Of a stretch of DNA of 64,000 nucleotides, positions 1,695 through 33,230 are shown in pieces. Origin of the DNA: an uncultured bacterium (GTDB lineage Bacteria > UBP14 > UBA6098); contig CAZSHG010000001.1 in NCBI GenBank assembly GCA_964606695.1, forward strand, positions 22,239 to 86,238. Reading direction: 5' to 3'. Every line of letters starts with the position of its first letter. The stretch's first letter is position 1. Made by a program: the position numbers and the translations under genes. The notes below the pieces were generated by a model. It was not told where the DNA came from, did not search any database, and worked only from the letters and a program-made list of their open reading frames with translations.

Positions 1695-2216
1695 CTACTT
1701 GAGAAGTATTACTTTCCCGCTAAATTTCTGGTTGCCCATTGAGATGTTGTATAGATAGGTTCCGCTGGGTAATTCGCCAGCGTCGAAATCGAGGTTATAT
1801 GTTCCACGATTAACCTCTTTATTCTCTCCGTAAACCAATCTGCCATTGACATCGTAAAACCGCGCTAATAATAATCCCTGCTCAGGAACGCTAATTTCGA
1901 ATCGCGTAACGGCATTGAAGGGATTCGGATACGCCGATCCAATCTCGAGTTTGTCAGGCAGTTTCTGGTCCTCGGGGGGTTTTTCTTCGATGGCCATCGA
2001 ACTGCCCATCAATGCTCCGATGAAACCCGCGTAATTATTGAATGAACCTCCTGAAGACATGCAGATTACCGCCTGCCCGATCGAAGCGAGATTGCTATAT
2101 CCGCCGCCGGTTATTGTCCCGCCGCCATTATCCTGAACGTGGGCTTTCTCTTCCTGCGCGAAAACCGACGCACAGGTAAGAAAGAAAATAATCGTAATTG
2201 TTATAATAACCTTCAT
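1695..2216 (-). CDS. Small secreted Gly/Ser-rich protein with T9SS C-terminal sorting domain
   Basis: Signal peptide (MKVIITITIIFFLTCASVFAQ). Gly-rich central segment. C-terminal ~85 aa (AYPNPFNAVTRF...GRLVYGE...SGTYLYNISMGNQKFSGKVILLK) matches the Por_Secre_tail / T9SS CTD pattern. Confidence 0.7.
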   Translation of the reverse strand: MKVIITITIIFFLTCASVFAQEEKAHVQDNGGGTITGGGYSNLASIGQAVICMSSGGSFNNYAGFIGALMGSSMAIEEKPPEDQKLPDKLEIGSAYPNPFNAVTRFEISVPEQGLLLARFYDVNGRLVYGENKEVNRGTYNLDFDAGELPSGTYLYNISMGNQKFSGKVILLK

Positions 2217-2336: not shown

Positions 2337-4352
2337 CTAACTTTTACCCAACTCGAGCACGATACTGCCGTTGCCGACAATCCAGGCATGCGATGAATCG
2401 AGTATGAAAATATCGTTCAGTGTTTCCTCGCTGAAACCTTCTAACTGTCGATACCAGGTCTCGCCACCATCGGCGGTATGCAATATATAACCGAATACGC
2501 CTGCAATCCAGCCCGTTTCGGTATCCGAAAAGGCCACCGATTTATATACACTCGAACTATGCATGGGCAAATCGAGAAGAGCCCAATTGTTACCGCCGTC
2601 GGTTGTTTTAATAACAGTTCCCAGATTCCCGCAAGCATACCCCACACTGGAATTGACCATGTCGATCGACATCAAGGTCTGATCCGTTCCGGAATCGAGC
2701 TGGCTCCATGTTTCGCCACCGTCGGTGGTTTTAATTATCACGCCGGTCTGGCCACTGGCAAAAGCGGTAGTTGCATTGACCACGTCCAAACCGAACAACT
2801 CTACCAAAACACCAGATTCTTTTGGCGTCTCCCAGTCTGTAGATTTAAGGACGATACCATTACTTCCCACGGCCAGTCCAGCAGAAGCGTCCAGAAATTC
2901 TATCTTGTTCAAACGGTATCCATAGAGACTGTCAACCGCAATCCATTCGCCTCCGCCGTCGGTTGTTTCCAGAATAGTAGCGAAGGTATCTATTGCTCCG
3001 TTGTAAGAGAATCCCACCGTCCAGCCGTTATTCTCGTCGGTGAAATAAATATCCTGCAATGACCGCGAGGTGTTGGCGTCCTGATGAAGCCAGGTTAATC
3101 CGCCATCCGTGGAATGAGCAATACGACCGGATTTGCCAACAAGCCAGCCCTCCATATTTGAAATGAAATAAATCCCGTTCAGGTTAACTCCACCGAGACC
3201 GTAACTTCTGAAATTCCAGGTTTCTCCTCCGTCGTATGTGACTTTTATCGCTCCGGAATTTCTCGAAGCATCGTTTCCGACAAGCCAGCCTTCGTCTTCA
3301 TCCAGGAAATTAAGATCGTTAATAACACCGGTAACATCGACATCGATTTCGTCCCAACTCGCTCCTCCATCGATGCTCTTCATAACTAACCCGTCATCGC
3401 CGATAATCCAGCCCAAACTTGGGGAAACGAAATTTATCTCTCCGGGAGTCTTATCTCCCTCAATATCGTCTGTAGGCGAGATATTGACCGTAAAATCGCC
3501 AATCGCGATATCAAAAATACTCCCGTCGGATATTATTATCCCGTTCTCCTCGTCGAAAGTATATATATCATACCACTTTACGGCGGATTCGATTACCAGC
3601 ATTTCCCAGCTTCCCGGATCCCCCCCTGCGTCTGAACGGAAAACGTAGAATTCTTCGTCCGTCTGGAGTGTATCGCAGAGAATATAAATTAAATCCTCAT
3701 CCGGTGCCCATCCACCGTAAAAATGCATTTTCTCCTGAGTAGCGTAAAGAGTTGTATCCACAACGCGAAGAGTCTCGCCGGTTTCGAGGTCTATTACGGC
3801 GTAATCTTCTATAAACGTATCGATAAGGACTTCTATATATTCCCAACTCACCCCTTGATCCAACGATCTTAGCAACGTTCCTTCATCGCCGCAAATAAAT
3901 AGAGGATTATCACCTCCGGTGACGGGCGTAATTATATCTTCAAGATCCCCTGAAGGAGCGCCGGCAGGGAAAGCATCAGTCCAACTCTGACCGTCATTGG
4001 TGGTCGTATATAACATCCCGCGTAAACCTATCATAATTCCGCGACTGCCCGCAAAATACATATCCGTAGCGTTTCTTTCAGATGAGGGATTCAGGGTTAC
4101 AATATCCCAGCTGTGTCCCCCGTCGTCCGTCAGATAGACATGTTCGTTATCGGCGCCAATCACCGCTTTATTATGCCCCAATGGCCAGATAGCTCCGGGC
4201 ACTTCAATTTCATTCACATCTACAAGCGACCAATATGTATTATCGGTTACTACGTCGTCGCCGTTATCCTCCGAACATCCGGCGAAGATGAAAATTGAAC
4301 TCACTATAAGGACGGATATTGCGAGTTTAAGCTTGTGCCAATTCTGAGTCAT
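2337..4352 (-). CDS. BNR/Asp-box repeat beta-propeller lipoprotein (Ycf48-like / sialidase-like fold)
   Basis: Lipoprotein signal (..IFIFAGCSEDNG). At least 9 Asp-box repeats of form S/T-x-D-G-G-x-T/S-W (TTNDGQSW, SLDQGVSW, SIDGGASW, TYDGGETW, STDGGLTW, TTDGGGEW, KTTDGGETW, KTTDGGNNW, HTADGGETW). Confidence 0.75.
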   Translation of the reverse strand: MTQNWHKLKLAISVLIVSSIFIFAGCSEDNGDDVVTDNTYWSLVDVNEIEVPGAIWPLGHNKAVIGADNEHVYLTDDGGHSWDIVTLNPSSERNATDMYFAGSRGIMIGLRGMLYTTTNDGQSWTDAFPAGAPSGDLEDIITPVTGGDNPLFICGDEGTLLRSLDQGVSWEYIEVLIDTFIEDYAVIDLETGETLRVVDTTLYATQEKMHFYGGWAPDEDLIYILCDTLQTDEEFYVFRSDAGGDPGSWEMLVIESAVKWYDIYTFDEENGIIISDGSIFDIAIGDFTVNISPTDDIEGDKTPGEINFVSPSLGWIIGDDGLVMKSIDGGASWDEIDVDVTGVINDLNFLDEDEGWLVGNDASRNSGAIKVTYDGGETWNFRSYGLGGVNLNGIYFISNMEGWLVGKSGRIAHSTDGGLTWLHQDANTSRSLQDIYFTDENNGWTVGFSYNGAIDTFATILETTDGGGEWIAVDSLYGYRLNKIEFLDASAGLAVGSNGIVLKSTDWETPKESGVLVELFGLDVVNATTAFASGQTGVIIKTTDGGETWSQLDSGTDQTLMSIDMVNSSVGYACGNLGTVIKTTDGGNNWALLDLPMHSSSVYKSVAFSDTETGWIAGVFGYILHTADGGETWYRQLEGFSEETLNDIFILDSSHAWIVGNGSIVLELGKS

Positions 4353-4548
4353 GTTATCTCCTTACTAAGAAGCCGTTCAAACATAGTCAATATATCAATA
4401 TATACCTCCGTATCCTGGTAGTCAATGTTTTTTTGTGTTTTATATGAACGGTAAAGAAAAGAGCGTTTTTTCAAAATTCAATCGTTCTTCGAAACTAATT
4501 ATTCCATTTAACGATATGTCCTTACGCAATTTTTCCGGGCGATAGGGC

Positions 4549-4587
4549 TTGACAAACAGGTGTGTTATTCGTTTATTATTTATATTG
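4549..4587 (+). promoter_or_regulatory. Candidate sigma70-like promoter (TTGACA -35) upstream of dapA
   Basis: TTGACA at 4549-4554, followed by AT-rich TATTAT/TATATT candidates 17-27 nt downstream. It lies in the divergent intergenic region between 4352 and 4622. The -10 assignment is ambiguous. Confidence 0.25.
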
Positions 4588-4621
4588 TATTTTGGGATTA
4601 AATGGAATTAGGTGTTATTCA

Positions 4622-5491
4622 ATGTTTAACGGCACAACAGTAGCGTTAGTTACGCCCTTCAAATCGAACGGCGAAATCGATTATGAGACGCTTCGATCTC
4701 TGGCGCAATTTCACCAAAAATCAGGAACCGATTGTATTCTGCTTGCGGGTTGCACCGGTGAGAGCTTTACGCTCGGCGACGAAGAGAGAATCGATATGTT
4801 GAAATCCGTCCGGGATAAAATCGGCGATTCCATGCCGCTTATTCTGGGAACCGGGGCATCATCGACGAAAGTGGCGGTTCGAAGGACGACGGAGGCCCTC
4901 GAAGCCGGCGCGGACGGCGCACTCGTTATTACTCCCTTCGGCAACAAACCGAGCCAGCACGCCCTTGTCGATTACTTCCGCGAGGTTGCCGATATAGGAT
5001 TGCCAATTATTCTTTATAACGTCCCGGGGCGGACGGGAACGACTATTTTACCTCAGACGGCCATCAAGCTTGCCAAACACCCAAATATCGTGGCGATTAA
5101 GGAGGCTTCGGGTTCATTGGATGCAGTCGCGGAAATCATCGCCGGATCGAACCTTGTAGTCCTTTCAGGCGACGATTCCCTTACCGTCCCAATGATATCT
5201 ATCGGCGCAAAGGGAGTCATTTCGACAACGGCTAATCTGCTCCCCCGATACTTTTCGGAAATGGTATCCGCCGCGTTGCAAGGCGATTTCAAAAAGGCCG
5301 CCATACTCCATCTTAAGCTTTTTCCCATTATGAAAGCGCTTTTCATCGAAGGCAATCCCGTTCCATTGAAAACCGCGATGGCGTTTGCGCAACTTATTCC
5401 AGAACCTATCTTCAGACCTCCTTTGGCCGGCATTTCTGAATCCAACTTAACCAAATTGAAAATTAAATTAGAAGAATACGGTGCGATTTGA
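4622..5491 (+). CDS. dapA: 4-hydroxy-tetrahydrodipicolinate synthase
   Basis: MFNGTTVALVTPF...GTTGE-type N-terminus (CTGESFTL here) and the active-site Lys context AIKEASG. DHDPS/NAL family. The ORF track begins at a GTG at 4562; the ATG at 4622 fits the family N-terminus better. Confidence 0.9.
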   Translation: MFNGTTVALVTPFKSNGEIDYETLRSLAQFHQKSGTDCILLAGCTGESFTLGDEERIDMLKSVRDKIGDSMPLILGTGASSTKVAVRRTTEALEAGADGALVITPFGNKPSQHALVDYFREVADIGLPIILYNVPGRTGTTILPQTAIKLAKHPNIVAIKEASGSLDAVAEIIAGSNLVVLSGDDSLTVPMISIGAKGVISTTANLLPRYFSEMVSAALQGDFKKAAILHLKLFPIMKALFIEGNPVPLKTAMAFAQLIPEPIFRPPLAGISESNLTKLKIKLEEYGAI

Positions 5492-6273
5492 GTATCAAAC
5501 TTGCAATTAACGGTTCAGCTGGAAGAATGGGCAAGATGCTGGTAACACTTGCTCAAAAAGACGAGAGATTCTCGATTACGGCGGCTCTGGAAAAGGAAGC
5601 TAATCTATTCCTTGGTTCCGACGCTGGATTAACGGCCGGAATTAGCCAGATAGGCATTAATATTACGAAAGAGGCTTCCGATTTCGACGTCATAATAGAT
5701 TTCAGCGATCCCTACGGGACTCTCACCGCCCTGGATTTAGCTCTGGATAAAGGCTCTGCGCTTGTTGTCGGGACTACAGGTCTCGACGATTCGACAATCG
5801 AAATATTAAAAACCGTTTCCGAAGAAATCGGCATTTTTATTGCGAGTAATTTCTCTCGCGGAATTGCACTGTGCAAAGAAATTTCCGCCAGAACAGCTAC
5901 CGGACTTCCCAATGCCGACATCGAACTTGTCGAAGCCCATCACAGAAACAAGATCGATGCCCCCAGCGGAACCGCCCTGGATTTAGCTCGTGGACTTGCC
6001 GCGACCCGCAAACTCGATTTCGATGAGCAGGTTATTTACGGAAGAAAAGGCCGCACCGGACCCCGGGAAGCTGACGAAATAGCGATAAATACAATCCGTG
6101 GCGGTGGAATCGTCGGCGAACACAGAATTATATTTGCTTCGCCTTTTGAGACCGTTGTTATCGAACACCGGGCTATTTCGCGAGCGCTATTTGCCGCGGG
6201 TGCATTGGACGCCGCTGAATTCGTTTACGGCAAAAAAGGCTTTTTTGATATGAATGATCTTATAAACAATTAA
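5488..6273 (+). CDS. dapB: 4-hydroxy-tetrahydrodipicolinate reductase
   Basis: N-terminal NAD(P)-binding motif INGSAGRMGK. Signature E(L/I)VEAHHRNKIDAPSGTAL present. TTG start overlaps the dapA stop (TTGA), consistent with an operon. Confidence 0.9.
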   Translation: MSIKLAINGSAGRMGKMLVTLAQKDERFSITAALEKEANLFLGSDAGLTAGISQIGINITKEASDFDVIIDFSDPYGTLTALDLALDKGSALVVGTTGLDDSTIEILKTVSEEIGIFIASNFSRGIALCKEISARTATGLPNADIELVEAHHRNKIDAPSGTALDLARGLAATRKLDFDEQVIYGRKGRTGPREADEIAINTIRGGGIVGEHRIIFASPFETVVIEHRAISRALFAAGALDAAEFVYGKKGFFDMNDLINN

Positions 6274-6287
6274 TATTCAGGAGCATT

Positions 6288-8138
6288 GTGAAAAAACAAA
6301 GTATGTTACTACTATTTTTAATCGCGGGCGCGATACTGGCGCAATGGCCTGCCCCAAGCGGGCTTGTTGCTTATTCATTTTTCGAGGATCACATCACACT
6401 CGAATGGACACCTCCCCCGCCGATCATCATCTCCGATACCCTCATATACGACACCGGCCCCGGTGGAGGTGGGATAGATCTGGACAGCGGAATGTGCGCA
6501 GTGAGATTCACTCCAGCCGAAGAATGTAGTATCCTCTCAGTTCAGTTCAGACTCCAAGCAATGCTGGGAATAAGGGCGATTAACCTGAATATGTATGGCG
6601 TCAACGCCCTCGGATTGCCCGATTATTCCGACGTCGTTCTACCCACCAGATACACTTCAGCGACCGTCGGCTGGAACATAAGCGACGTCAGCGATGCGGG
6701 AATAGTCGTTGACGACGAATTCTTTGTAAGGATTTCCAAAGGCGATACGCTCCCAGAGATGCTCCTTATCGCCGATGACGAGATTAATCCCTCCGATCCG
6801 AGATCGTATCAATACCATTACATGTATGGATGGAGACAGCTTGCGGGGGATCTCCTGGTTCGCATCGAAGTCCTGTATAGGGATTCCGGCACCAGAGCAA
6901 CTCTCGTCGGCACGCCTGTAAAATCTACGTTTGAACTCGCACCAGAACATCTCGGCGGTTTCTCCGAACCATACCATCCCGCTCCAACGCCACGGTTAAG
7001 GCCGACGGAATCGACTTCACTGATTACGCCCTGCACCTACAGCATTTATAAATCGGGCACTTACGGCCCCCCGCTACCCTTTTATGCTACGGTTCCCGGA
7101 AGCGTCACAACCTTCGATGATTATTCCGTTACTCCCGGCCACACGTATTATTATACGATCAAAGCCGATTACGACAGCGGAGCCGCGCATAGCCCCCCAT
7201 GCGATACCGTCGCGGGGACGGCCTACGAAAGCGTCGCTTCTCTGGTTTACGATACGCTACGCTACGACGACGGCGTTCCATCGGCGGGAGTTACATTCCC
7301 CGGCGCCGTTATAGCCAACAAATTTCACGTCGATAATAGATGCAAACTCCTCGCCCTGGATTATCATGTCAACGCGGCCGGCTTCGGTTCGCCTAAATTC
7401 TATTGGGACGAGGGCGACGAACCGGGCGAAGACATCCTCGACTACGGTGATTACCTTCTCGGTTCAACCGGTTGGGCGAGAATAAACGTCGCCATGGAGA
7501 ATATCATCCTCGACGGCGATTTCTACATTGGAATCGAGATGGACGCTATGCTCGGAATATCCCTGGAAAACTATCATACCGGATATGCATGGGACTACCC
7601 GCCCGGCGGCCCCTGGAGTCAAATCCCCGATACTATTTATTACATCCGAGCTTTGATTCAATACGCCGACAGCAATGCATATTATCATCTTTATCCCGGC
7701 TGGAATGCGGTAAGTCTGCCGATAATCCCTCATGGAGGATTATCGCCTTCGGTCGCCTTCCCGACTGCGGAATTCATATTCGACTGGAACGCCGATTCGA
7801 TGGGCTATATCGTGCCGGAAAACCTCGCGCCGGGACAGGGCTATTTCATTTATGTCCCGGAAGAAGTCAGTTATTCTGTTACCGGCGTCCCCATCCATTT
7901 ATATACCCTGATGAATGCCGGACCGGGATGGGAATTCATCGGCAGTCTATCAAAATACGACGGTGTCGATACTACGGGAATATCCGAAACACCGGACGAT
8001 ATAATTAGCCATAGGATATTCTATTATTACGATAGGTCTTCGGGTTCCGGGAATTATCAAATAAAAAGGAAATTCATGCCCGGCGAAGCTTACTGGATAC
8101 TATTCGACGACGAAGGCCTGTTTGAACTAAGAGAATAA
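6288..8138 (+). CDS. Secreted protein with internally duplicated ~150-aa N-terminal domains, a fibronectin-III-like segment and a C-terminal 'GWN' module
   Basis: GTG start with AGGAG 7 nt upstream. Signal peptide MKKQSMLLLFLIAGAILAQ. Two homologous segments (...LIYDTGPGGGGIDLDSGMCAVRF... / ...LVYDTLRYDDGVPSAGVTFPGAVIANKF...). C-terminal 148 aa share the GWNxVSLP...PGQGYF...GPGWEFIG pattern with the S8 peptidase and the 3109-aa protein. No T9SS CTD. Confidence 0.7.
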   Translation: MKKQSMLLLFLIAGAILAQWPAPSGLVAYSFFEDHITLEWTPPPPIIISDTLIYDTGPGGGGIDLDSGMCAVRFTPAEECSILSVQFRLQAMLGIRAINLNMYGVNALGLPDYSDVVLPTRYTSATVGWNISDVSDAGIVVDDEFFVRISKGDTLPEMLLIADDEINPSDPRSYQYHYMYGWRQLAGDLLVRIEVLYRDSGTRATLVGTPVKSTFELAPEHLGGFSEPYHPAPTPRLRPTESTSLITPCTYSIYKSGTYGPPLPFYATVPGSVTTFDDYSVTPGHTYYYTIKADYDSGAAHSPPCDTVAGTAYESVASLVYDTLRYDDGVPSAGVTFPGAVIANKFHVDNRCKLLALDYHVNAAGFGSPKFYWDEGDEPGEDILDYGDYLLGSTGWARINVAMENIILDGDFYIGIEMDAMLGISLENYHTGYAWDYPPGGPWSQIPDTIYYIRALIQYADSNAYYHLYPGWNAVSLPIIPHGGLSPSVAFPTAEFIFDWNADSMGYIVPENLAPGQGYFIYVPEEVSYSVTGVPIHLYTLMNAGPGWEFIGSLSKYDGVDTTGISETPDDIISHRIFYYYDRSSGSGNYQIKRKFMPGEAYWILFDDEGLFELRE

Positions 8139-8150
8139 AAAGGGAGAAAT

Positions 8151-9119
8151 ATGAGAAAAATAACATTCCTGATTGCGATATCCTTGATTGCAAATGCCGC
8201 GTTCGCAGGAATGATAATGGGCACCCTCATCGCCCCTGGGACACCGACGGATACGGCCTATGTCTTCGTCTTCCACGATTTCTCAACGCTGATGGATACC
8301 GCTTTCTTCTGGACTACGACGGTTCCCCCCGACTATGATTTCGTCTTCGATGACCCGGCGATAATAGACGACTACGATTATAATGTCATGGGATTGATCC
8401 CCTCGGGCTTGATGCCGGAAAGCGGAGACCCCGCCGGACAGTATCCGGATAATCCATTCAGAATTAGCGGCGGTCTGATAACAGGCGTGGACGTCGAATT
8501 AGCCGAAACCGGCGGTGTCGATGGACGGATTACCTACAGCGGCGGTTCGGATTCACTCAAGATCGATTTCTATAACCAATATCCAGTGTTATTCGGAGGT
8601 TCGCCCTCTCTCGATGGAACCTGGCCGGTAACCGATACCGGATTTACTCTGGATAGTATCCCCTCAGGTACCAAAACCGCCATCGCGTGGTCGGATGTGA
8701 ACGGAAACGACATGTGCGATACAACAGGCTTCGTGGATGAACCACATGCCTGGTTTAGTAACGACATGGAGGGAATTTTCATTGTCGGCGGCGGAGTAAA
8801 TATGGAAATCGACTTTAACCTCGATCTCGGTGAGGTAGCTGAAAGCGAAAGACAACCTACCGACTTTGGAATAAGATGTTTCCCAAATCCGTTTAATTCC
8901 ACCGTTTCAATTCTGGTAGCCAGTAACGGTAAACCGTTAGAAATTGAAATATACGACGCCCTGGGTAAACTGGTCGATAGAGTCGCAGAGAGGGAGGCTT
9001 TCACCGGGTTTTCACTGTTGCGCTATAATCCGCCCGAAAATATGGCTTCGGGTGTTTATCTGGTCAAAGCCACAAGTGGCAAAATAACAAAAACGCAAAA
9101 TATAGTTTACACGAAGTAG
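8151..9119 (+). CDS. Secreted protein with T9SS C-terminal sorting domain
   Basis: Signal peptide MRKITFLIAISLIANAAFA. C-terminus CFPNPFNSTVSIL...IEIYDALGKLVDR...SGVYLVKATSGKITKTQNIVYTK matches Por_Secre_tail. RBS AAGGGAG upstream of ATG at 8151. Confidence 0.7.
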   Translation: MRKITFLIAISLIANAAFAGMIMGTLIAPGTPTDTAYVFVFHDFSTLMDTAFFWTTTVPPDYDFVFDDPAIIDDYDYNVMGLIPSGLMPESGDPAGQYPDNPFRISGGLITGVDVELAETGGVDGRITYSGGSDSLKIDFYNQYPVLFGGSPSLDGTWPVTDTGFTLDSIPSGTKTAIAWSDVNGNDMCDTTGFVDEPHAWFSNDMEGIFIVGGGVNMEIDFNLDLGEVAESERQPTDFGIRCFPNPFNSTVSILVASNGKPLEIEIYDALGKLVDRVAEREAFTGFSLLRYNPPENMASGVYLVKATSGKITKTQNIVYTK

Positions 9120-13257: not shown

Positions 13258-16200
13258 TTACTTGATCAGCATTACCTTGTGTGTCGCGTTGAATTCTCCC
13301 GCAACCATACGGGCGAAGTAAACGCCGCTCGGCATCGAAGAAGCGTTCCAGGTGACGTTGTAAACGCCGCCGTCAAGCCTCTCGCTGACCAGAGTTTCCA
13401 CCCTCTTACCGGTAATATCGTATATCGCCAGCTCGACGTCGGAGTCCTTCGGGAGCTGGAACTCGATAGTGGTTACCGGGTTGAACGGGTTCGGGTAGTT
13501 GCCCGCAAGCGCGTAATCCTTCGGCAGTTTCGCATCGACTTCGTAGATTCCGGTATTCGGAATACCGATCTTCCAGAGGTAACCGGAAGCGGCGCGATAC
13601 TGCACATACGGATACGTGCCATCGACGATGCCGCCGAGATAAATCGCGGAGATAATCGTCTGGCAAGGCCCGTTATAGAAGAACGTCCTGAACGTCGTGT
13701 CCTGATCCCAGCCTACAGGGTTAGTTAATCCGCCGGAAGCCGAGAGAATGTCCACGAAATGATCGGCGGAACTGCTGTCATCGTAGTCGAAGGTATGCCC
13801 GACTGTGCTGTGCATCAGGTCGGCATTGCCAAAGAACCAATCGACGTTGAAGTCCGCCGCGCCGTCGTCCAGGAAGGAGAGACCCAGGTTATCGAAGAGA
13901 TCCTCGTCGTTGTAGTCCGCACCGAAGTCCGGGCCTTCGATAATCATCTTCTTACCAGAAGTCGCTCTGTAAGCCTCCAGTTTGGCTAACGCCGCCGAGG
14001 GCAGTTCCGTGTTGTCCGCATCGTTGATACCGAGCGCGACAACGACCAGCATATAATCGCCAAGGTTGTATCCGTCCAGCGGATCCGATTCGGAATCGTC
14101 GGTCGTAGCTACAACCGCGCTAAGTCCAAGATCGGTGGATTCGAGCATATCTACCCACCATTCGCCGACACCCATGGTGCCGCCGTTGCATGGCGTCGCG
14201 CCGTTATCCCAGTCGAGAACAAGGATGTCCGCGGGGTCGGGCGTATAAACGCTCGTCGCGCTTACGTTACCCGCGAGAACCGAATAGTAGCTTTCGCAAC
14301 CATACTCCACGACCACATCGTAATAATACGTTACGCCGTCTTCGACGGTTTCATCGTCGAAGGTAGCTGTGCCGTAAGAAGCGGAGCCAATTAGTGTAAC
14401 ACCGGGTGCGGTAACATCGATAAACGGCGTCTCGGAACGATAAACTCTATATGAATCCGGCATACAGCAATCTGTATCCGGTTCCGTCCAGGTCAGCGTA
14501 ATCGCCAGCGGATCGGAAGCAGGACGCGCAACGCTGTCGCCTTCAGCCGCGAGATCCGTTACCGGATCAAGACAGCAGAGCGAAACCGAGATCGTCGTGT
14601 CCGCGCTGACGTAGATACTATCAACCATCGCGGTCTTGTGATAGTCCGCGACGACTTCGACACTATACCAGCCGTGATCGACGTCGTCGAAAGTAACATT
14701 GCCACTTGCAGGCGTAGTTTCCATGCCGACGCCGGAAAGCGTAACTTCCGCACCGGACTCGTCGGACGCCTCGCAACCGAGATCGACCGAAACCGTTACC
14801 TCGACAGGTATCGTCTCCAGGTCGAAGTCCAGGTCGTCAAGGCCGTCTTCCGGAACTTCGAGAGTCGTGCAAGCCTCGGCGTAACCGGTATAGCTCGCGC
14901 AAATAGTTCCGTAGCCGATATTGGCGAAAACACAGTAAGCGCCAAGAGAATCTGTGGTTCCTGAAACAGCAACTCCAGGACCGTCGATTTCGATGCCCTC
15001 GGCTGGAACGCCATCGAGCATAGCGGTGCCACAAACCATAACGGTGGTTTCGCTCAGGTTGAAATCGACGTTGACATCGACCAACGCGACAGTAACCGTT
15101 TCCACAACAGAGCGATAACCCGTATGAGAGGCTATGAGAATATAGGTGCCCGGGATTATACCTACGAATTCGTAGTAACCCAGCGGGGAAGTAGCCGTAT
15201 TAACCCAGTCGAGAAGCGTAGTTCCAGTCGAATCGTAGAGTTCAATGTCTATATTATCGTCAGGCGATCCCATAAGTGAACCCGTTCCATAGATCATACG
15301 GCTATCGCACGGAACCATATCGTATGTCGGAACAGTGATAGTGGTATCGGCAATATCGCAGTCAACAATAACTACACTATCTTCGTCGGGATGCGGACAA
15401 TAATCATCTTCGGGATCCCAGAATGTAAGTTCGTGGGTTCCTAACGGTATATTGGCGAAGGAATAGAATCCGGAGCTATTTGTCGTGCGGAAAGAACCGC
15501 CGTCCAGATAAACGCGAATTCCGCTGTGATCGTCCGCGCCGTAGAGCATAACGTCGCCCTCGATATTGAATATTTCAAGTTCTTCGCCGACGAAACCGAG
15601 ACCAATATACAGTAAATCCGTGTTCGCATTGTAAACGATCGAATCGCCAACGTCCATGAGTGTCCAGGAATCATCGACCGCAGTCGGTTCCGGTGTCGCA
15701 AGTGGGAGCGAAATGTAATACAGATGCCACGCAGTATCCGCGAATACCGGCGATGTTGGCCAGGTAACCGTCACAGTGGGTGAACCAAGCGGATCTCTCT
15801 TAGCGATCTGCCATATATTCGGACGATCGCATGGGCCGCGCATATCTTTGATAAGCTTATCCGCCGGAGGATCGTCGTCGCAGGTGAAGTAGAATCCGGC
15901 ATCCGTAATGGGCGGAGGCTGAATCTGGTCAACACCGGCGTCGTAACCGGGCGAAGCGCCCTCGATCGTTCCGAAGGTAATGGTTTCCATCGATTCCGGA
16001 GTAGAACCCCAGGCCAATGTAATCGGAAGCTCGAATTCGGGCGAGCAACCTGCGGGGCCGGTGGTGAAAGTCCAGATTTCCGGATCCATTTCATTTGCCG
16101 GAAGCGCGTTGTCAGCCGCGTTAACTTCGACCGTGAATTCCGTATTCGGCGCCCAGGAAGGATCAGGCGTATAGCAGTAGCGATAACCGTTGGATAGAGT

Positions 16201-18030
16201 CGTAGAAGTAAACTCATCCGTTAAATCGACGTAATCGACCGAAATAGTTACCGAAGTAGGATCTACGCCGGTTCCGTAATCTATTACCTCGAAGCAAAGC
16301 GGGGTAGTCGGATCGTAACCGCCGCCACCAGTGCCCGTGCCTTCCATGGATATTTCGCGGACGATCGGAGGCATAGTATCTTCGAAAGCCGGCAGGAATC
16401 GGATTATGACCTGCTGATCGGAAGTGAATTCCGTCTCGTCGTAGGATTCCATGGAAACCCAGCTTGTCGGCGTAGTTCCTCTATCGACTACCGCATAGTG
16501 GAATTGGCCGGCATAGGGCAGTGCGCTATTATCCCAGGTTACGAATAAATCGCCCTCGGGTTCGAAAACATCTACTGTCCACTGCTTTAAACCGCTTTCC
16601 GTGCTACGAATATCTCTCGAAAGAGCGGGCACTTCGGGATGGGTTGGATCCATCAACGGGAAGTAGCCGCGCGGAGCGCCCGGGAACAGGAACTGCGGAA
16701 CGTCGAGCCCGCTATCGTAACCGTCCGTGCCCAGGTTATCTAGGCCGAGATAAAGGTTAGTTGCCGCTGTATCGGAACCTGAAATCGATAGAACTCGAAT
16801 GTTATAGGTAAATTCGGCTAGCGATTCCGCTTCTTCCGTAGTGAACGACCACTCGATCGTCTCGTCATTTCCCCAACCATCCTCGGCGTAAACGCTGACA
16901 TCGTATATTCCGCCGTAATTGAGGTTTTCGGGGGGGCAATACTGGACTGAAAACCAATCTGAACCGACACCTAATTCGCTAATGCTCAGATCGTCGTGGG
17001 AAACCTCTTCCCCGTCGAATTCGAAGACAATTGTGCTACTATCCACACCGCTTTCGGAATCTTTGATTATCACGCTTACGCAGGAAGTTACATCGACTCC
17101 TGTTGCGCCGTTAGCGGGATTGGGGTTCTCGAAATAGGGCGGGTAAACATCTGGAGGAATAACCTGCGTGAAGAAAGATACGACCGTATCTGCCACCATA
17201 CAATTCGCGGGATCGGCTAAATCACAGGCATTAACCGAATAAGTGATCATCGTGGAATCCGGCCATTCGCCGCCGGCGATAGCAGGATCGATAGTTACGC
17301 GATAACCGCCGACGATTGGATCCAGAACCATATCTCCGGCATCGACTCCCATCGAGTCTCCATCCCACCAAATACTAACCGTAATACTGGCGTCGTCCAC
17401 ACCTCTGTTGTCATCTTTGACGTTGAATTGAATCGGCAGATCGACGTCCACGCCGGCCTCGCCTGGGACAGGATCGAAACCATTAACATACGGCGCGATA
17501 GTATCGACCATACCCGACGGCATGAAACGGAATGCCACGTCTTCCATAACTCCAAATACGAATTCCGTGGTGGTTTCCATTGGCACCCAAAGAGTGTCGT
17601 CGAGGGTAGCAGGATCTATACCGTAAGTTATCGGAGCAACCCAGAAATATCCGGCTGATACCGGATCTGGTATTTCCAGTGTATCCCAAACTACGAAACG
17701 GTCATCCAGCCCGAAGTAACCCTCGTCCATAGCGACCCAGTATGTGTAATCGCCGGTCTCTATACCCCGCACATCGGTTTGTAGCTTGGTATATGCCGGA
17801 TGTAACGGATCGACAAGAGGAAAATACGCTCCCTTACCGTCGGGAGGCGAAAAATAAGGGACGTCTAAGAAGGCGTCGTAACCTGCGGTGGCTCCCGCAG
17901 TCATAGCCATTGTCAGATCGAAAGTATCTCCCGGAACGGGAACGATCTGAAAAGTAAAACTCCAGCTCTGGGCAAATGCTAAACTGACCAGCGCGAGAGC
18001 TACTACTAAGGTAATTTTGCCTTTTGACAT
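13258..18030 (-). CDS. Giant secreted multi-domain surface protein (1590 aa) with T9SS C-terminal sorting domain
   Basis: Signal peptide MSKGKITLVVALALVSLAFAQ. Three copies of a ~100-aa N-terminal domain (GYD.g.DVP.F..P....YFPL.DP.HP...). Ig-like (Big_5-like) repeats with GVD motifs. Carboxypeptidase-regulatory-like segments (GTYILIASHTGYRSVVETVTV). One FN3-like domain. C-terminus YPNPFNPVTTIEF...IYDITGKRVETL...SGVYFARMVAGEFNATHKVMLIK matches the T9SS CTD. Confidence 0.8.
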   Translation of the reverse strand: MSKGKITLVVALALVSLAFAQSWSFTFQIVPVPGDTFDLTMAMTAGATAGYDAFLDVPYFSPPDGKGAYFPLVDPLHPAYTKLQTDVRGIETGDYTYWVAMDEGYFGLDDRFVVWDTLEIPDPVSAGYFWVAPITYGIDPATLDDTLWVPMETTTEFVFGVMEDVAFRFMPSGMVDTIAPYVNGFDPVPGEAGVDVDLPIQFNVKDDNRGVDDASITVSIWWDGDSMGVDAGDMVLDPIVGGYRVTIDPAIAGGEWPDSTMITYSVNACDLADPANCMVADTVVSFFTQVIPPDVYPPYFENPNPANGATGVDVTSCVSVIIKDSESGVDSSTIVFEFDGEEVSHDDLSISELGVGSDWFSVQYCPPENLNYGGIYDVSVYAEDGWGNDETIEWSFTTEEAESLAEFTYNIRVLSISGSDTAATNLYLGLDNLGTDGYDSGLDVPQFLFPGAPRGYFPLMDPTHPEVPALSRDIRSTESGLKQWTVDVFEPEGDLFVTWDNSALPYAGQFHYAVVDRGTTPTSWVSMESYDETEFTSDQQVIIRFLPAFEDTMPPIVREISMEGTGTGGGGYDPTTPLCFEVIDYGTGVDPTSVTISVDYVDLTDEFTSTTLSNGYRYCYTPDPSWAPNTEFTVEVNAADNALPANEMDPEIWTFTTGPAGCSPEFELPITLAWGSTPESMETITFGTIEGASPGYDAGVDQIQPPPITDAGFYFTCDDDPPADKLIKDMRGPCDRPNIWQIAKRDPLGSPTVTVTWPTSPVFADTAWHLYYISLPLATPEPTAVDDSWTLMDVGDSIVYNANTDLLYIGLGFVGEELEIFNIEGDVMLYGADDHSGIRVYLDGGSFRTTNSSGFYSFANIPLGTHELTFWDPEDDYCPHPDEDSVVIVDCDIADTTITVPTYDMVPCDSRMIYGTGSLMGSPDDNIDIELYDSTGTTLLDWVNTATSPLGYYEFVGIIPGTYILIASHTGYRSVVETVTVALVDVNVDFNLSETTVMVCGTAMLDGVPAEGIEIDGPGVAVSGTTDSLGAYCVFANIGYGTICASYTGYAEACTTLEVPEDGLDDLDFDLETIPVEVTVSVDLGCEASDESGAEVTLSGVGMETTPASGNVTFDDVDHGWYSVEVVADYHKTAMVDSIYVSADTTISVSLCCLDPVTDLAAEGDSVARPASDPLAITLTWTEPDTDCCMPDSYRVYRSETPFIDVTAPGVTLIGSASYGTATFDDETVEDGVTYYYDVVVEYGCESYYSVLAGNVSATSVYTPDPADILVLDWDNGATPCNGGTMGVGEWWVDMLESTDLGLSAVVATTDDSESDPLDGYNLGDYMLVVVALGINDADNTELPSAALAKLEAYRATSGKKMIIEGPDFGADYNDEDLFDNLGLSFLDDGAADFNVDWFFGNADLMHSTVGHTFDYDDSSSADHFVDILSASGGLTNPVGWDQDTTFRTFFYNGPCQTIISAIYLGGIVDGTYPYVQYRAASGYLWKIGIPNTGIYEVDAKLPKDYALAGNYPNPFNPVTTIEFQLPKDSDVELAIYDITGKRVETLVSERLDGGVYNVTWNASSMPSGVYFARMVAGEFNATHKVMLIK

Positions 18031-18184: not shown

Positions 18185-21100
18185 TTACTTCATGAGGGTC
18201 ATCTTACGAGTGGCCTTGAAGTCTCCTGCGGAAATCTTGTAGAAGTAGATTCCGCTCGGAACAGGCCTGCCCTCGTCGTCGCTTCCATCCCAGACGACGG
18301 AGCGATAACCGGCTTCCTGCTCGCCGTTTATCAGCGTGGCAACCTTCTGACCGAGGACACTGTAAACCTCGAGGGTTACTCTCGTGTCGGTCGGCAGTTC
18401 GTATTTGATTGCCGTAACTGCATTGAACGGGTTCGGCAGGTTCTGGCCGAGAGCGAAGGCGTCGGGGATAGCCACGCGGTCGGCAACCAGCTTGTGCGAA
18501 CCTGGAGTGATCTCGACGACGTCGCCGTCACCGTAAGTCGCTCCGTTGAGGGAGACGATCCAGTCGCCTTCCACCTCGAGGGTCGCTCTGTAGTTGCTTG
18601 TTGCATTGACTGTCCACTCGATCTTGCTGTCGGTAGTGCGGTAGTCGGTGTCGTAGCCGCCGCCGAGAACGAACTCGCTCTGTCCGACATGCGCCGGAAC
18701 CGCGTAGTGGTCGATGCCACGGTCGAAGTTCTCGGTAGCGATATCGGCCGCGCCGAATGTCAGCGTGCGACTATCCGTAACCAGCTTGCCGGTGAACAGC
18801 GGGGCGAACTGACCGTCTTTGACGGTATAGACGACCTTGCCGCCACGGGCACCCGGAACGTGAAGCACACATCCGCTTGGATCGGTAACCATGACAAGAT
18901 GTCCGCGACAATGTTCCAGAGTAGTGGTTAGATGGTAGTCGACACCACATTCATACCAGCGCGTTTCTGTCGGATCGATAGCACCTGCGGGATCGGTGTC
19001 CGGTGCGGTGAACAGAACGTCCGTCCAGGTCGCGCCTATCAGGTTCCAACCGGCCTCTAAGGTCACATCGAAGGACTCGACAGGTGCGCCGCAAAGCGTA
19101 ACTTCCATATCACTCGACGGATAGACCGCGTATCCCATACCGGCTTCGAGAGGTGTTCCAGCAGAAACCGGAATGTAGGTTCCGCCGATCATCTCGTAAA
19201 CTGGAGCGCCGCCGAACACGTCAACCGTAGTATCGGGTTCGACGCTGATCGCGATCAGGTTCCAATCCGTGCAGAGTTCGTAGGTGCAACAATGCTCTTC
19301 CGGAACCACATCGACATCGATGCAGGTCTCGTTGCCCGCAAGGTCGTAAGCGCAAACTTCGACAACGTCGCCCGGTGTAGGAGCAACCGGACCCCATGGA
19401 GTGGTAGCTACCGCGCCAGTCTCATCAACCCAGAACGGGCCGATTTCGACAAAGCCGCCAACTGTATCTACCGTTACCATCACGTAAACATACCCGTCGC
19501 CGAGTTCGTTCGTGAAGTTATCCTCGAGGAAGTTATCCCAGATAGCATCGACGTAAGCGGTGAAGTTTTCGCCGGTGGCGAGAACCAGAGCGCTATCGAT
19601 GGTCGGGGCTTCGATGTCGACCAGAGCGAGCTTACCTTCGGAAGTGCTAAGCCTGGCTTCTGAGTAATCGAGAACATTACCCGCGGCGTCGCGAGCTTTA
19701 CCGAGTAAGTAAGCAATACCCTGTGCGTCAAGTCCTTCGGGTAGTCCGGCGACATCCCACTCGTAAGTGTAAACGTCGTCGCCGAAGAACGCGAGCTGAT
19801 TGCCGAATGTATAGATCGGATCCGCATCTTCGTAGGAAGATGGAGTCATCGCACCATTCATGTAGTCCGGCTGACGCCAGAACGGATGATGGATGTCCCA
19901 CGCATCGAGATCGTCGTCCCACAGCCTGGCTTCGAGGTGATCGTTCGGATCGTCGAAGTCGTCGCCGTAGTGCGGCATACCGTCGATGGTGATTCTCCAG
20001 TGATCCCACATGCGGGTGTAGATGTAATTACCGTAGTTCCAGTAGGAAACCGGATCGCCTGCGGTTGCCGGATCAAAGACCGTTTCATCCCAATCGATGT
20101 CGATGAGGAACTCGTCCGCATTGACAACCCAGATGTAAACTTCATCCGGATAATCGATCGGGTTGATAGCCTTATACGGAACCGTCAGATCGTCAGATCT
20201 CAGCATGGAAACCTCGTAAGTCGGATCGTAAGTATCCAGTAAGATGTATGCGAGGTGATCCCAGTCGTGATAAACACTATCTGCAATGCTGAAAGTATGC
20301 TCGGTAGCGGTGATCGTGACCAGACCGTCGTAACGGTTATCCTGATCATCGACATCCCACTTATAGACCCAGTAGGTTCTACCTTCGACCATTACCGTAT
20401 CGTCGTCATCGAGCCTGACGTTGATTTCCAGGTTAGAACCGGAGATGTTGCCACCCCAGTAATCCTGAATATTCAGGTCGATGTATTCGACGTAGATATC
20501 GGTCGGGAGTTTCTCGAGCAATACATAGAGGCTATCGCCCGGGTAACCGCCGGATTCGACATACGGATGCATGAGCGGATCCGGATCGCCGGAGCTATAG
20601 TCCGGGTTATTGAAGGTTGTGAGTTGAACAACCGGCATAATCTGCGGAACTCTATGCAGTGAATCGACTCTCCAGAGGTCGGGCATACCGGCGGCCGCAA
20701 TAGCCGCAGTATCGATCCAGCCCCAGGTCGGCCAATCCGGCCACATATCTTCCATTGCGGAATCCCACCACGGGAAGATGTCGTCCGACTCCATAACCGC
20801 GGGATAATTGGCGGATACGCTGTTGAGCGCGTCCATCAGATTGTCGCCACGAGCGAGGAACGGAGGCCTGAGAATGGTCAGCGTATCCTCGTCGAAGAAG
20901 TCGAATTCGCAATCGGGGTGGTAATATTGCCAGTAGTCGCCAATCACACCTGATTCGGCAGTATCCACAACATGAATACCGTCGAAGGCTTGCCAGCTAA
21001 GCGTCCACATACCGGCCGGCAATCCTGACGGATCGCTGTATTCGAGGCAAATAACCTCGTCAACAGGATCGTAGTAAAGCGGCGACGTGGCATCGACGAT

Positions 21101-29559: not shown

Positions 29560-29579
29560 TCCAGATGGTGTTTTTTTGA

Positions 29580-31627: not shown

Positions 31628-31638
31628 TTTTCCGTGGT

Positions 31639-33210: not shown

Positions 33211-33230
33211 TACTATTATCGGGGAATTTT

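What the first reader, a model, noticed from the sequence alone, without database searches (positions are those of the whole stretch)
7692..8138. Recurrent ~130-140-aa C-terminal 'GWN' module shared by three otherwise unrelated secreted proteins
The C-termini of the 616-aa secreted protein (7692..8138), the S8 peptidase (57625..58059) and a region just upstream of the CTD in the 3109-aa protein (about 18850..19275, - strand) align convincingly. The shared pattern is GWN-x-[VI]-S/A-[IL]-P ... W-x-W-N/D ... PG-x-[GS]-YF-[IV] ... G-[AV]-P ... [PA]GWN/E-x-IG ... Y ... PG-x-G-A/Y-[FW]. The two proteins that carry this module at the extreme C-terminus lack a T9SS CTD. The giant protein has both. This looks like a portable cell-surface-attachment or sorting/recognition module that I cannot assign to a named family.
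Basis: seen in the sequence. Interest (0 to 1): 0.65.

Follow-up and report, generated by a model that had tools for sequence, protein, structure and literature searches.

The report
Uncatalogued double-repeat end-domain of secreted proteins
Three unrelated secreted proteins in this window share a real ~145-residue all-beta domain from a large bacterial and archaeal family with no curated model or solved structure; it marks the C-terminal end of the mature protein and most likely keeps that protein attached to the cell surface or to a partner.

Summary
The three copies align significantly: BLASTP gives 1e-14, 1e-12 and 8e-5. A profile built only from database sequences hits all three end to end, at E 1e-28 to 1e-36.

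- **Structure:** the module is a tandem duplication of a ~70-aa unit (hhalign 99.5%, E 6e-23). AlphaFold2 models it confidently as all-beta (pLDDT 94).
- **Known families:** Pfam, NCBIfam and PDB sequences give no match. Foldseek finds no neighbour in PDB or BFVD.
- **Family size:** an exhaustive HMMER scan finds 7,350 clusters at 50% identity. Members come from Chloroflexota, Bathyarchaeia, Methanogenium, Ignavibacteriota and Bacteroidota.
- **Position:** the module is the extreme C-terminus in lineages without T9SS tails. In T9SS lineages it usually sits just upstream of the T9SS CTD.
- **Not a T9SS signal:** it is unrelated to the CTD (hhalign 0.1%).

Several Chloroflexota and archaeal genomes keep it 75-93% identical on proteins whose other parts are unrelated. 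This suggests a shared partner.

My best reading is a retention or docking end-piece (confidence about 0.4). Function is inferred, not shown.

The parts
6288..8138 (+). 616-aa secreted protein (signal-peptide-like N-terminus, no Pfam family, no T9SS CTD) that carries module copy A at its extreme C-terminus
   Evidence: ORF listed. Pfam and NCBIfam give nothing significant. No CTD. Orthologues P0038, P0110, P0125 and P0131 keep the terminal module.
7683..8135 (+). Module copy A (aa 466-616). Unit 1 is aa 466-535 (7683..7892) and unit 2 is aa 542-614 (7911..8129).
   Evidence: E 2e-35 against a database-only HMM. AlphaFold2 model of this copy: pLDDT 94.1, pTM 0.87, all-beta.
56272..58059 (+). 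595-aa S8 subtilase (Peptidase_S8 at aa 165-434) with module copy B at its extreme C-terminus; no CTD
   Evidence: Orthologue P0001 (same cluster as MCD6501959.1) has the same architecture.
57622..58056 (+). Module copy B (aa 451-595). Unit 1 is aa 451-520 (57622..57831) and unit 2 is aa 527-593 (57850..58050).
   Evidence: E 1.6e-36 against a database-only HMM.
18185..27514 (-). 3109-aa secreted giant protein: about 2740 aa of passenger, then module copy C, a conserved spacer domain and a T9SS type-A CTD
   Evidence: The syntenic orthologue P0002 (3068 aa) has the same C-terminal cassette.
18854..19285 (-). Module copy C (aa 2744-2887). Unit 1 is aa 2744-2812 and unit 2 is aa 2816-2880.
   Evidence: E 1.8e-28 against a database-only HMM.
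18461..18829 (-). Conserved ~125-aa spacer domain (aa 2896-3018) between module and CTD; part of a recurrent module-spacer-CTD cassette
   Evidence: An HMM from 43 other module-spacer-CTD proteins, built without the window sequence, hits it at E 5e-8. No Pfam family.
18188..18451 (-). T9SS type-A C-terminal sorting domain (aa 3022-3109)
   Evidence: PF18962, PF13860 and TIGR04183 hits. Local CTD HMM.

Best explanation
WHAT IT IS (shown). The module is a ~145-residue, all-beta, acidic and aromatic-rich extracytoplasmic domain. It was built by tandem duplication of a ~70-residue unit with the pattern L-x-x-GWN-[LM]-[VI]-S-[LV]-P ... FP ... Y-x-W-[ND] ... Y ... [EL]-PG-x-GYW-[VI]. It belongs to a large family found in both Bacteria and Archaea that has no curated model. 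It is fused to very different secreted proteins (the passengers): S8 and C1 peptidases, a GH13 amylase, GH57, an EEP nuclease/phosphatase, NHL, FG-GAP and Rax2 propellers, and PKD proteins. It almost always forms the last folded domain of the mature protein. In Chloroflexota and Archaea it is the very C-terminus. In T9SS-bearing bacteria it usually lies directly before the cleavable T9SS CTD, with or without a conserved ~130-aa spacer.

HOW IT MOST LIKELY WORKS (inferred). It is a retention or docking end-piece, not a secretion signal. After export, the module holds the passenger at the cell envelope by binding a partner common to all module-bearing proteins of that organism. That partner could be a lineage-specific surface glycan, a protein layer, or another copy of the module on an anchored protein. 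In this window the 3109-aa giant would be covalently anchored through its CTD, with the module next to the membrane. The CTD-less 616-aa protein and the S8 peptidase would rely on the module alone to stay cell-associated.
For: Shown:
- Homology of the three copies.
- Tandem duplication: hhalign 99.5%, E 5.8e-23. Units come only in twos or fours in the top 150 hits.
- Confident all-beta model: pLDDT 94.1.
- Family size: 7,350 representative clusters at E<=1e-3 and 1,170 at E<=1e-10.
- Taxa: Dehalococcoidia, Chloroflexia, Bathyarchaeia, Methanogenium cariaci, Ignavibacteriota, Bacteroidota.
- Position: 114 of 150 hits are terminal. 24 of 150 carry a CTD, always downstream of the module, and one carries a C-terminal TM anchor. 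In the genome loci the tail is 0-3 aa in Chloroflexota and archaea, against about 120 or 215-230 aa ending in a CTD in Ignavibacteriota and Bacteroidota.
- Export: 91 of 115 hits have signal-like N-termini.
- Passengers are diverse.

Pointing to a shared partner:
- In five genomes (Dehalococcoidia PFL52 and co334_347, Chloroflexia MFD02416, Methanogenium, ENA contig L001) modules are mostly 75-93% identical within the genome. The best match in any other genome is 38-71%. Most of the passengers compared give no BLAST hit to each other.
- A conserved Ignavibacteria operon pairs a CTD-less GH13 amylase ending in the module with a CBM20/CBM53 protein carrying module, spacer and CTD.
Against: - No binding, localisation or interaction data exist; the function is inference from architecture.
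- The modules are strongly acidic (median pI 4.2, net charge -10). Classical non-covalent wall anchors such as GW, SLH and LysM are basic.
- In T9SS lineages, and in this window, modules are not homogenised. Within-window identity is 26%, and orthologues in other genomes are closer. In those organisms a common partner is not indicated.
- In CTD-bearing proteins an extra anchor would be redundant.
- No conserved partner gene was found next to Chloroflexota or archaeal loci.
- The final compartment of the two CTD-less window proteins (periplasm or surface) is unknown.
- The genome loci were selected with two peptide patterns, which may inflate within-genome similarity.
Confidence: 0.4

Rival explanations
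1. Lectin- or CBM-like module that binds an external ligand. The module would bind a polymer in the environment or in the organism's own matrix (polysaccharide, detrital particles, EPS), so that secreted enzymes and adhesins stick to substrate rather than to the cell.
For: - The composition is typical of carbohydrate-binding modules: W+Y about 10%, rich in G, S, T and P, acidic.
- The conserved aromatic motifs (GWN twice, GYW twice) are arranged pseudo-symmetrically.
- The module occurs on a GH13 amylase, on GH57 and next to CBM20/CBM53.
- It occurs on secreted peptidases alongside PKD, CARDB and PPC domains.
Against: - The passengers act on unrelated substrates: proteins, starch, nucleic acids or phosphoesters, and non-enzymatic propellers.
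- A substrate-binding role does not explain the strict 'last domain before the C-terminus or CTD' rule.
- It does not explain within-genome homogenisation on unrelated passengers.
- No hit to any Pfam CBM or lectin family.
Confidence: 0.2
2. Module-to-module docking ('piggy-back display'). Modules would associate with each other, so that CTD-less module-terminal proteins are displayed on a CTD-anchored, module-bearing scaffold. Here the CTD-less proteins are the S8 peptidase and the 616-aa protein, and in Ignavibacteria the amylase. The scaffolds are the 3109-aa giant here and the CBM20/53 protein there. This would work like cohesin-dockerin.
For: - The window holds exactly this set: two CTD-less terminal copies plus one CTD-anchored copy.
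- A conserved two-gene operon occurs in at least four Ignavibacteria genomes: a GH13 amylase with a terminal module, immediately followed by a CBM20/CBM53 protein with module, spacer and CTD (L052, L053, L070, L072).
- The pseudo-symmetric two-unit build always comes in pairs of units.
- Acidity argues against binding to anionic envelope polymers.
Against: - The amylase operon is essentially one evolutionary instance.
- Other CTD-less terminal copies in T9SS lineages have no anchored partner nearby (L059, L071, L076).
- The window's three genes are not adjacent, and their modules are only about 26% identical.
- Chloroflexota and archaeal genomes show almost only terminal copies. Only one TM-anchored example was seen (P0010).
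- The model gives no route for a CTD-less protein across the outer membrane.
Confidence: 0.15
3. Inert structural end-piece or folding aid. The module would be a stable stalk or pedestal, or a C-terminal folding nucleus or protease-resistant cap, with no specific ligand. It would be kept at the C-terminus for folding or spacing reasons.
For: - Positional conservation at the end of the mature chain across very different envelopes.
- In T9SS lineages it lies between the passenger and the CTD, like the Ig-type linker domains known before CTDs.
- In orthologues it evolves at about the same rate as the passenger: 46-54% against 40-62% identity.
Against: - Within-genome conservation of 75-93% on unrelated passengers, well above between-genome identity, is hard to explain for an inert spacer.
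- Small proteins exist that are almost only the module, such as P0048 (164 aa) and L027 6915-7367.
- The aromatic motifs are highly conserved across domains of life.
Confidence: 0.15
4. Novel C-terminal sorting or secretion signal. The module would be an alternative to the T9SS CTD (for example a third CTD type), recognised by a dedicated export or attachment machinery and possibly cleaved.
For: - Extreme C-terminal position on signal-peptide proteins that lack a CTD, in an organism rich in T9SS cargo.
- Folded beta-domains can act as secretion signals, as the T9SS CTD itself does.
- Within-genome homogenisation is also what sorting signals show.
Against: - No relation to type-A or type-B CTD models: PF18962, TIGR04183 and PF13585 give no hit on the module, and hhalign probability is 0.1-0.2%.
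- In T9SS lineages it mostly sits upstream of a bona fide CTD in the same polypeptide.
- It is abundant in Archaea and Chloroflexota, which by established knowledge lack an outer membrane and T9SS (not tested here).
- No conserved processing or partner gene lies nearby.
- At 145 aa it is twice the size of known CTDs.
Confidence: 0.05

Closest known systems
T9SS type-A C-terminal sorting domain (Por_Secre_tail, PF18962 / TIGR04183)
   Same: A folded beta-domain at the C-terminal end of signal-peptide proteins with unrelated passengers. It is present in the same organism and even in the same protein (the giant).
   Different: No sequence relationship (hhalign 0.1-0.2%). The module is twice as long and is a tandem duplication. 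It lies upstream of the true CTD when both are present. It also occurs in Archaea and Chloroflexota.
Non-covalent cell-surface anchoring modules shared by many surface proteins of one genome (SLH PF00395, Listeria GW module PF13457, CWB2)
   Same: A repeat-built terminal module fused to many unrelated extracellular passengers. In several genomes it is highly similar among paralogues. The Gly-Trp signature and paired ~70-80-aa units recall GW modules; this resemblance is from memory and is a lead only.
   Different: No Pfam hit to any of these families. The module is strongly acidic, whereas those anchors are basic. No ligand is known. It is also found in diderm T9SS bacteria upstream of a covalent anchoring signal.
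Cohesin-dockerin display systems
   Same: A possible analogy only: unanchored enzymes and an anchored partner share a dedicated module. Examples are the amylase and CBM-protein operon, and the two CTD-less proteins plus the giant in this window.
   Different: No sequence similarity. Here the same module is on both partners. No interaction has been shown.
Accessory C-terminal beta-domains of secreted peptidases (PPC PF04151, PKD PF00801/PF18911, CARDB PF07705, FlgD_ig PF13860)
   Same: A small beta-domain appended to S8 and C1 peptidases and other exoenzymes. It co-occurs with these domains in homologues.
   Different: None of these models matches the module. The strict terminal or pre-CTD position, the double-repeat build and the lack of any Foldseek PDB neighbour set it apart.

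Membership tests
T9SS type-A CTD (PF18962 / TIGR04183) | Significant match to the Por_Secre_tail HMMs | tested here: not met
   No hit on any of the three isolated modules, or on 35 family members, at E<=1. The models do hit the real CTD of the giant. Profile-profile comparison of module against CTD gives probability 0.1-0.2%.
T9SS type-A CTD (PF18962 / TIGR04183) | Last ~70-100 residues of the protein; restricted to T9SS-bearing (FCB-group) bacteria | tested here: not met
   The module is about 145 aa. In 24 of 24 CTD-bearing homologues it lies upstream of the CTD. It is also present in Chloroflexota, Bathyarchaeia and Methanogenium.
T9SS type-B CTD (TIGR04131 / CHU_C PF13585) | Significant match to the type-B CTD HMMs | tested here: not met
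   CHU_C hits only the giant's true CTD region (aa 406-460 of the 471-aa tail). Nothing hits the modules.
PKD / FlgD-Ig / other Ig-like anchor-adjacent domains (PF00801, PF18911, PF13860) | Match to the family HMM; single ~80-90-aa Ig-like sandwich | tested here: not met
   No Pfam hit on the modules. The module is a duplicated ~70-aa unit. Foldseek finds no Ig-like PDB neighbour: best TM is below 0.25 and no hit reaches E<=1e-3.
Listeria GW module (PF13457) / SH3b | Match to the GW HMM; SH3-like fold; basic surface that binds lipoteichoic acid | tested here: not met
SLH domain (PF00395) | Match to the SLH HMM; helical fold | tested here: not met
   No Pfam hit. The model is all-beta.
Pre-peptidase C-terminal domain (PPC, PF04151) | Match to the PPC HMM | tested here: not met
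   No hit on the modules. PPC occurs elsewhere in one homologue (P0026), separate from the module.
The family proposed here (GWN/GYW double-repeat C-terminal domain; no curated model exists) | Full-length match to a family profile built without the window sequences; two tandem units | tested here: met
   E 1.6e-36, 2e-35 and 1.8e-28 over profile positions 1-144. Two units are detected in each copy.
The family proposed here (GWN/GYW double-repeat C-terminal domain; no curated model exists) | Signal-peptide protein; module is the last domain, or is followed only by a spacer and/or T9SS CTD | tested here: met
   All three window proteins have signal-like N-termini. Copies A and B are terminal. 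Copy C is followed by the conserved spacer and a CTD.
The family proposed here (GWN/GYW double-repeat C-terminal domain; no curated model exists) | Binding to a cell-envelope component or to another module | not testable with these tools
   This needs biochemistry or multimer structure prediction, and neither was available.

The most novel reading that the evidence does not exclude
The module is a self-recognising docking device with a new fold. Enzymes that lack a T9SS tail would be displayed on the cell by plugging their terminal module into the module of a CTD-anchored partner. Here those enzymes are the S8 peptidase and the 616-aa protein, and the partner is the 3109-aa giant. In Ignavibacteria the enzyme is a GH13 amylase and the partner is a CBM20/53 protein. 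This would be a cohesin-dockerin-like display system layered on T9SS. Homogenised versions of the module would organise the surface proteome of S-layer-walled Chloroflexota and Archaea.
Probability: 0.12. Interest if true: 0.8.

Novelty: new variant of a known kind. Interest (0 to 1): 0.55.

Why it matters
About 7,000 protein clusters in uncultured Chloroflexota, Archaea, Ignavibacteriota, Bacteroidota and candidate phyla end in this domain, including many extracellular peptidases and glycosidases. Knowing whether it tethers these enzymes to the cell, or docks them onto anchored partners, would change how 'secreted' enzymes are read in sediment and subsurface carbon cycling. It would also add a surface-display principle that spans Bacteria and Archaea.

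A curated HMM would have immediate use. It would annotate thousands of 'hypothetical' C-termini, and it would stop CTD-less proteins in T9SS organisms from being taken for truncated genes.

The confident model has no Foldseek neighbour in PDB. It is therefore a reasonable target for structure determination.

Tried and rejected
1. **Word-index homology search.** With the 3-sequence and the 35-sequence alignments it found 0 and 5 proteins. This was a sensitivity failure of the index, because exhaustive HMMER found 7,350.
2. **AlphaFold2 with only the three window copies.** pLDDT was 42, which is unusable. It was replaced by the 35-sequence run.
4. **PDB sequence-profile search.** The only result is a weak hit to interpain A (E about 0.1), which I treat as chance.
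5. **Genome scan with the diverse alignment.** This biases the loci towards GWNMVSVP-type modules.
6. **Single units elsewhere in the window.** None were found.
7. **Conserved partner or processing gene next to Chloroflexota and archaeal loci.** None were found; the recurring clusters are passenger families.
8. **Link between the spacer before the giant's CTD and the triplicated module of the neighbouring 1590-aa protein.** The signal is weak (BLASTP 0.017, hhalign 4.6%) and the link is not accepted.
9. **Higher conservation of the module than the passenger between orthologues.** This is not seen; the levels are similar.
10. **Literature.** No paper contains the motif strings, and two keyword searches found nothing relevant.
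11. **Source record.** An exact look-up of the 616-aa protein found no record. The host lineage was not determined.
Full report
**1. The observation**

The three regions are real and homologous.

| Copy | Protein | Residues | Window DNA |
|---|---|---|---|
| A | 616-aa ORF 6288..8138 (+) | aa 466-616 | 7683..8135 |
| B | S8 peptidase 56272..58059 (+) | aa 451-595 | 57622..58056 |
| C | 3109-aa ORF 18185..27514 (-) | aa 2744-2887 | 18854..19285 |

BLASTP on the excised segments gives A-B 1e-14, B-C 1e-12 and A-C 8e-5 at 23-26% identity.

A profile built only from 141 database sequences, with no window sequence in it, matches all three copies over profile positions 1-144. The E-values are 1.6e-36, 2e-35 and 1.8e-28, and nothing else in the six-frame translation is hit. 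There is no fourth copy and no isolated half-copy in the window.

The parts of the three proteins outside the module (the passengers) are unrelated. All three proteins start with signal-peptide-like sequences.

Only the giant protein has a T9SS CTD (PF18962, PF13860, TIGR04183). A local CTD HMM finds five CTD-bearing ORFs in the window, but not the 616-aa protein or the S8 peptidase.

**2. Anatomy**

With the three window copies alone, half 1 against half 2 gives hhalign probability 95% and E 2.7e-8. With a 144-sequence alignment it gives 99.5% and E 5.8e-23.

The unit is about 70 aa. Its pattern is L-x-x-GWN-[LM]-[VI]-S-[LV]-P ... FP ... Y-x-W-[ND] ... Y ... [EL]-PG-x-GYW-[VI] ... G-x-P. In the 150 best homologues the units come only in twos (143 proteins) or fours (7 proteins).

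AlphaFold2 with three sequences failed (pLDDT 42). With a 35-sequence alignment it gave a confident all-beta model of copy A: pLDDT 94.1, pTM 0.87 and about 14 strands.

The modules are acidic and aromatic-rich. Median pI is 4.2, net charge about -10, W 4.3% and Y 5.7%.

**3. No known family matches**

- Pfam-A (2025) and NCBIfam 20.0 give no hit on the three modules or on 35 diverse family members.
- PDB sequence profiles give only a chance-level hit, interpain A at E about 0.1.
- Foldseek of the confident model finds nothing at E<=1e-3 in PDB or BFVD, and TM stays below 0.3.
- Sources name homologues 'hypothetical protein', or name them after the passenger only.
- A literature search for the motif strings and for related keywords found nothing.

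**4. The family**

The word-index search missed the family. An exhaustive HMMER scan of 1.84 billion representatives found 7,350 clusters at E<=1e-3 and 1,170 at E<=1e-10.

Among the best 150 hits:
- 114 end within 15 aa of the module.
- 24 continue into a T9SS CTD, always downstream of the module.
- One continues into a C-terminal TM anchor.
- The rest have other tails.
- 91 of the 115 hits that start with Met and are at least 250 aa long have a signal-like N-terminus. The others look like truncated gene calls.

Passengers are very diverse: S8 and C1 peptidases, a lectin-like domain, Big_5, NHL, FG-GAP and Rax2 propellers, PKD, CARDB, GEVED, a GH13 amylase, GH57 and an EEP phosphatase/nuclease.

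A scan of one genome per GTDB species confirmed 218 matches. They lie in Dehalococcoidia, Chloroflexia, Bathyarchaeia, Methanogenium cariaci JCM 10550, Ignavibacteriota including Melioribacteraceae, Bacteroidota and unclassified MAGs.

**5. A positional rule**

In the Chloroflexota and archaeal loci the module is nearly always the very end of the protein, with a tail of 0-3 aa and no CTD. In Ignavibacteriota and Bacteroidota it is usually followed by one of two arrangements:
- about 35 aa and a CTD (tail about 120 aa), or
- a ~130-aa spacer and a CTD (tail about 215-230 aa).

A minority of copies in those phyla are terminal and CTD-less. The spacer is itself a conserved, unannotated domain. 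An HMM from 43 other proteins hits the giant at E 5e-8.

The window thus holds one 'module-spacer-CTD' protein and two of the rarer 'terminal, CTD-less in a T9SS organism' proteins. A syntenic relative keeps the same architectures (L081; P0001, P0002, P0038).

**6. Clues to function**

(a) **It is not a T9SS signal.** It is unrelated to CTD profiles. It lies upstream of real CTDs. It is common in organisms without T9SS (combined with established knowledge that T9SS is confined to the FCB group).

(b) **Within-genome homogenisation.** In five genomes the modules are mostly 75-93% identical to each other, while the best match in any other genome is 38-71%. These genomes are Dehalococcoidia PFL52 and co334_347, Chloroflexia MFD02416, Methanogenium and ENA contig L001. 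In four of them most compared passengers give no BLAST hit to each other. SLH, CWB2, dockerins and sorting signals behave this way, and it points to a shared partner. One caveat applies: the loci were selected with two peptide patterns.

(c) **No homogenisation in T9SS lineages.** In T9SS lineages and in this window the modules are not homogenised (26% identity within the window). They evolve at about the rate of their passengers.

(d) **A conserved operon.** In Ignavibacteria a CTD-less GH13 amylase ending in the module is immediately followed by a CBM20/CBM53 protein with module, spacer and CTD (L052, L053, L070, L072). This hints at module-mediated pairing.

(e) **Acidity.** The acidic charge argues against electrostatic binding to anionic envelope polymers.

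(f) **No neighbouring partner.** No conserved partner gene was found near the Chloroflexota and archaeal loci.

**7. Explanation**

With high confidence (about 0.95) this is a genuine, widespread, uncurated extracytoplasmic domain that marks the C-terminal end of the mature protein.

| Mechanism | Confidence |
|---|---|
| Retention or docking end-piece that binds a partner common to the organism's module-bearing proteins (surface glycan or protein layer, or another module) | about 0.4 |
| Lectin- or CBM-like binding of external polymers | 0.2 |
| Specific module-to-module docking of CTD-less enzymes onto CTD-anchored partners | 0.15 |
| Inert pedestal or folding aid | 0.15 |
| Novel sorting signal | 0.05 |

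Every functional statement here is inference from architecture, distribution and composition. No step of binding or localisation has been shown.

**8. Comparison and novelty**

The module behaves like known portable terminal modules of surface proteins (SLH, GW, CWB2, dockerin). It sits where Ig-like linker domains sit before T9SS CTDs. It fails every membership test that could be run for those families.

I rate it a new variant of a known kind: a new family, and possibly a new fold, of C-terminal accessory or retention domain. Interest is moderate (0.55). It would be high if the docking reading holds, and ordinary if it turns out to be one more sticky beta-domain.

Noticed in passing
window 18461..18829 (-), aa 2896-3018 of the 3109-aa protein: The ~125-aa stretch between the module and the T9SS CTD is a conserved domain of its own. 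An HMM built from 43 other module-spacer-CTD proteins, without the window sequence, hits it at E 5e-8. No Pfam family covers it. Module, spacer and CTD together form a recurrent C-terminal cassette in Ignavibacteriota, Bacteroidota and unclassified MAGs.
   Followed up: partly
window 13258..18030 (-), aa ~19-175, ~399-560, ~656-800 of the 1590-aa CTD protein: There are three copies of another unannotated ~150-aa module, with the motif (T/L)-x-x-G...G-YD-x-G-x-D-x-P...YF-P-L-x-DP-x-HP. BLASTP gives r1-r2 at E 1.6e-20 and r1-r3 at 1.4e-4. A possible link to the giant's spacer is weak and was not accepted.
   Followed up: partly
L070 198..3680 and 3684..6812; also L072, L052, L053: A two-gene operon is conserved in Ignavibacteria. 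The first gene is a GH13 alpha-amylase ending in the module with no CTD. It is immediately followed by a CBM20/CBM53 starch-binding protein with module, spacer and T9SS CTD. This may be a tethered amylase-binder pair.
   Followed up: partly
window 28012..38064 (-), next to the giant gene; L081 729..9459: A surface-polysaccharide cluster abuts the two giant CTD-protein genes. It encodes a Wzi-like protein, a GT4/GT1 glycosyltransferase, RmlD, a flippase, a Wzy-like protein, a Wzz/GNVR protein and a Wza/SLBB exporter. The same order is kept in a relative's contig from Logan run SRR5323185.
   Followed up: no
window 18185..27514 (-); orthologue P0002 in L081: About 2,700 aa of the giant's passenger have no Pfam family on record. 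The 3068-aa orthologue carries only FlgD_ig. It is a very large secreted protein of unknown make-up.
   Followed up: no
window 1695..2216 (-), 8151..9119 (+), 13258..18030 (-), 18185..27514 (-), 42400..43653 (+): Five ORFs in 64 kb end in a T9SS type-A CTD, so the organism is rich in T9SS cargo. The CTD protein at 8151..9119 starts 13 nt after the stop of the CTD-less 616-aa module protein. This gene pair is conserved in L081.
   Followed up: partly
L002-L005 (Dehalococcoidia PFL52), L006/L009/L011, L023/L027/L031 (Chloroflexia MFD02416), L035 (Methanogenium cariaci): Genes for large, mutually unrelated surface proteins lie in tandem arrays, each ending in a nearly identical module (75-93% identity). 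These genomes appear to use the module as a common C-terminal tag.
   Followed up: yes
P0010 (1461 aa), P0114 (3980 aa): Two atypical architectures turned up. In P0010 the module is followed by about 340 aa ending in a hydrophobic TM-like segment and a basic tail. In P0114 the module lies near the N-terminus, at aa 204-353 of 3980.
   Followed up: no
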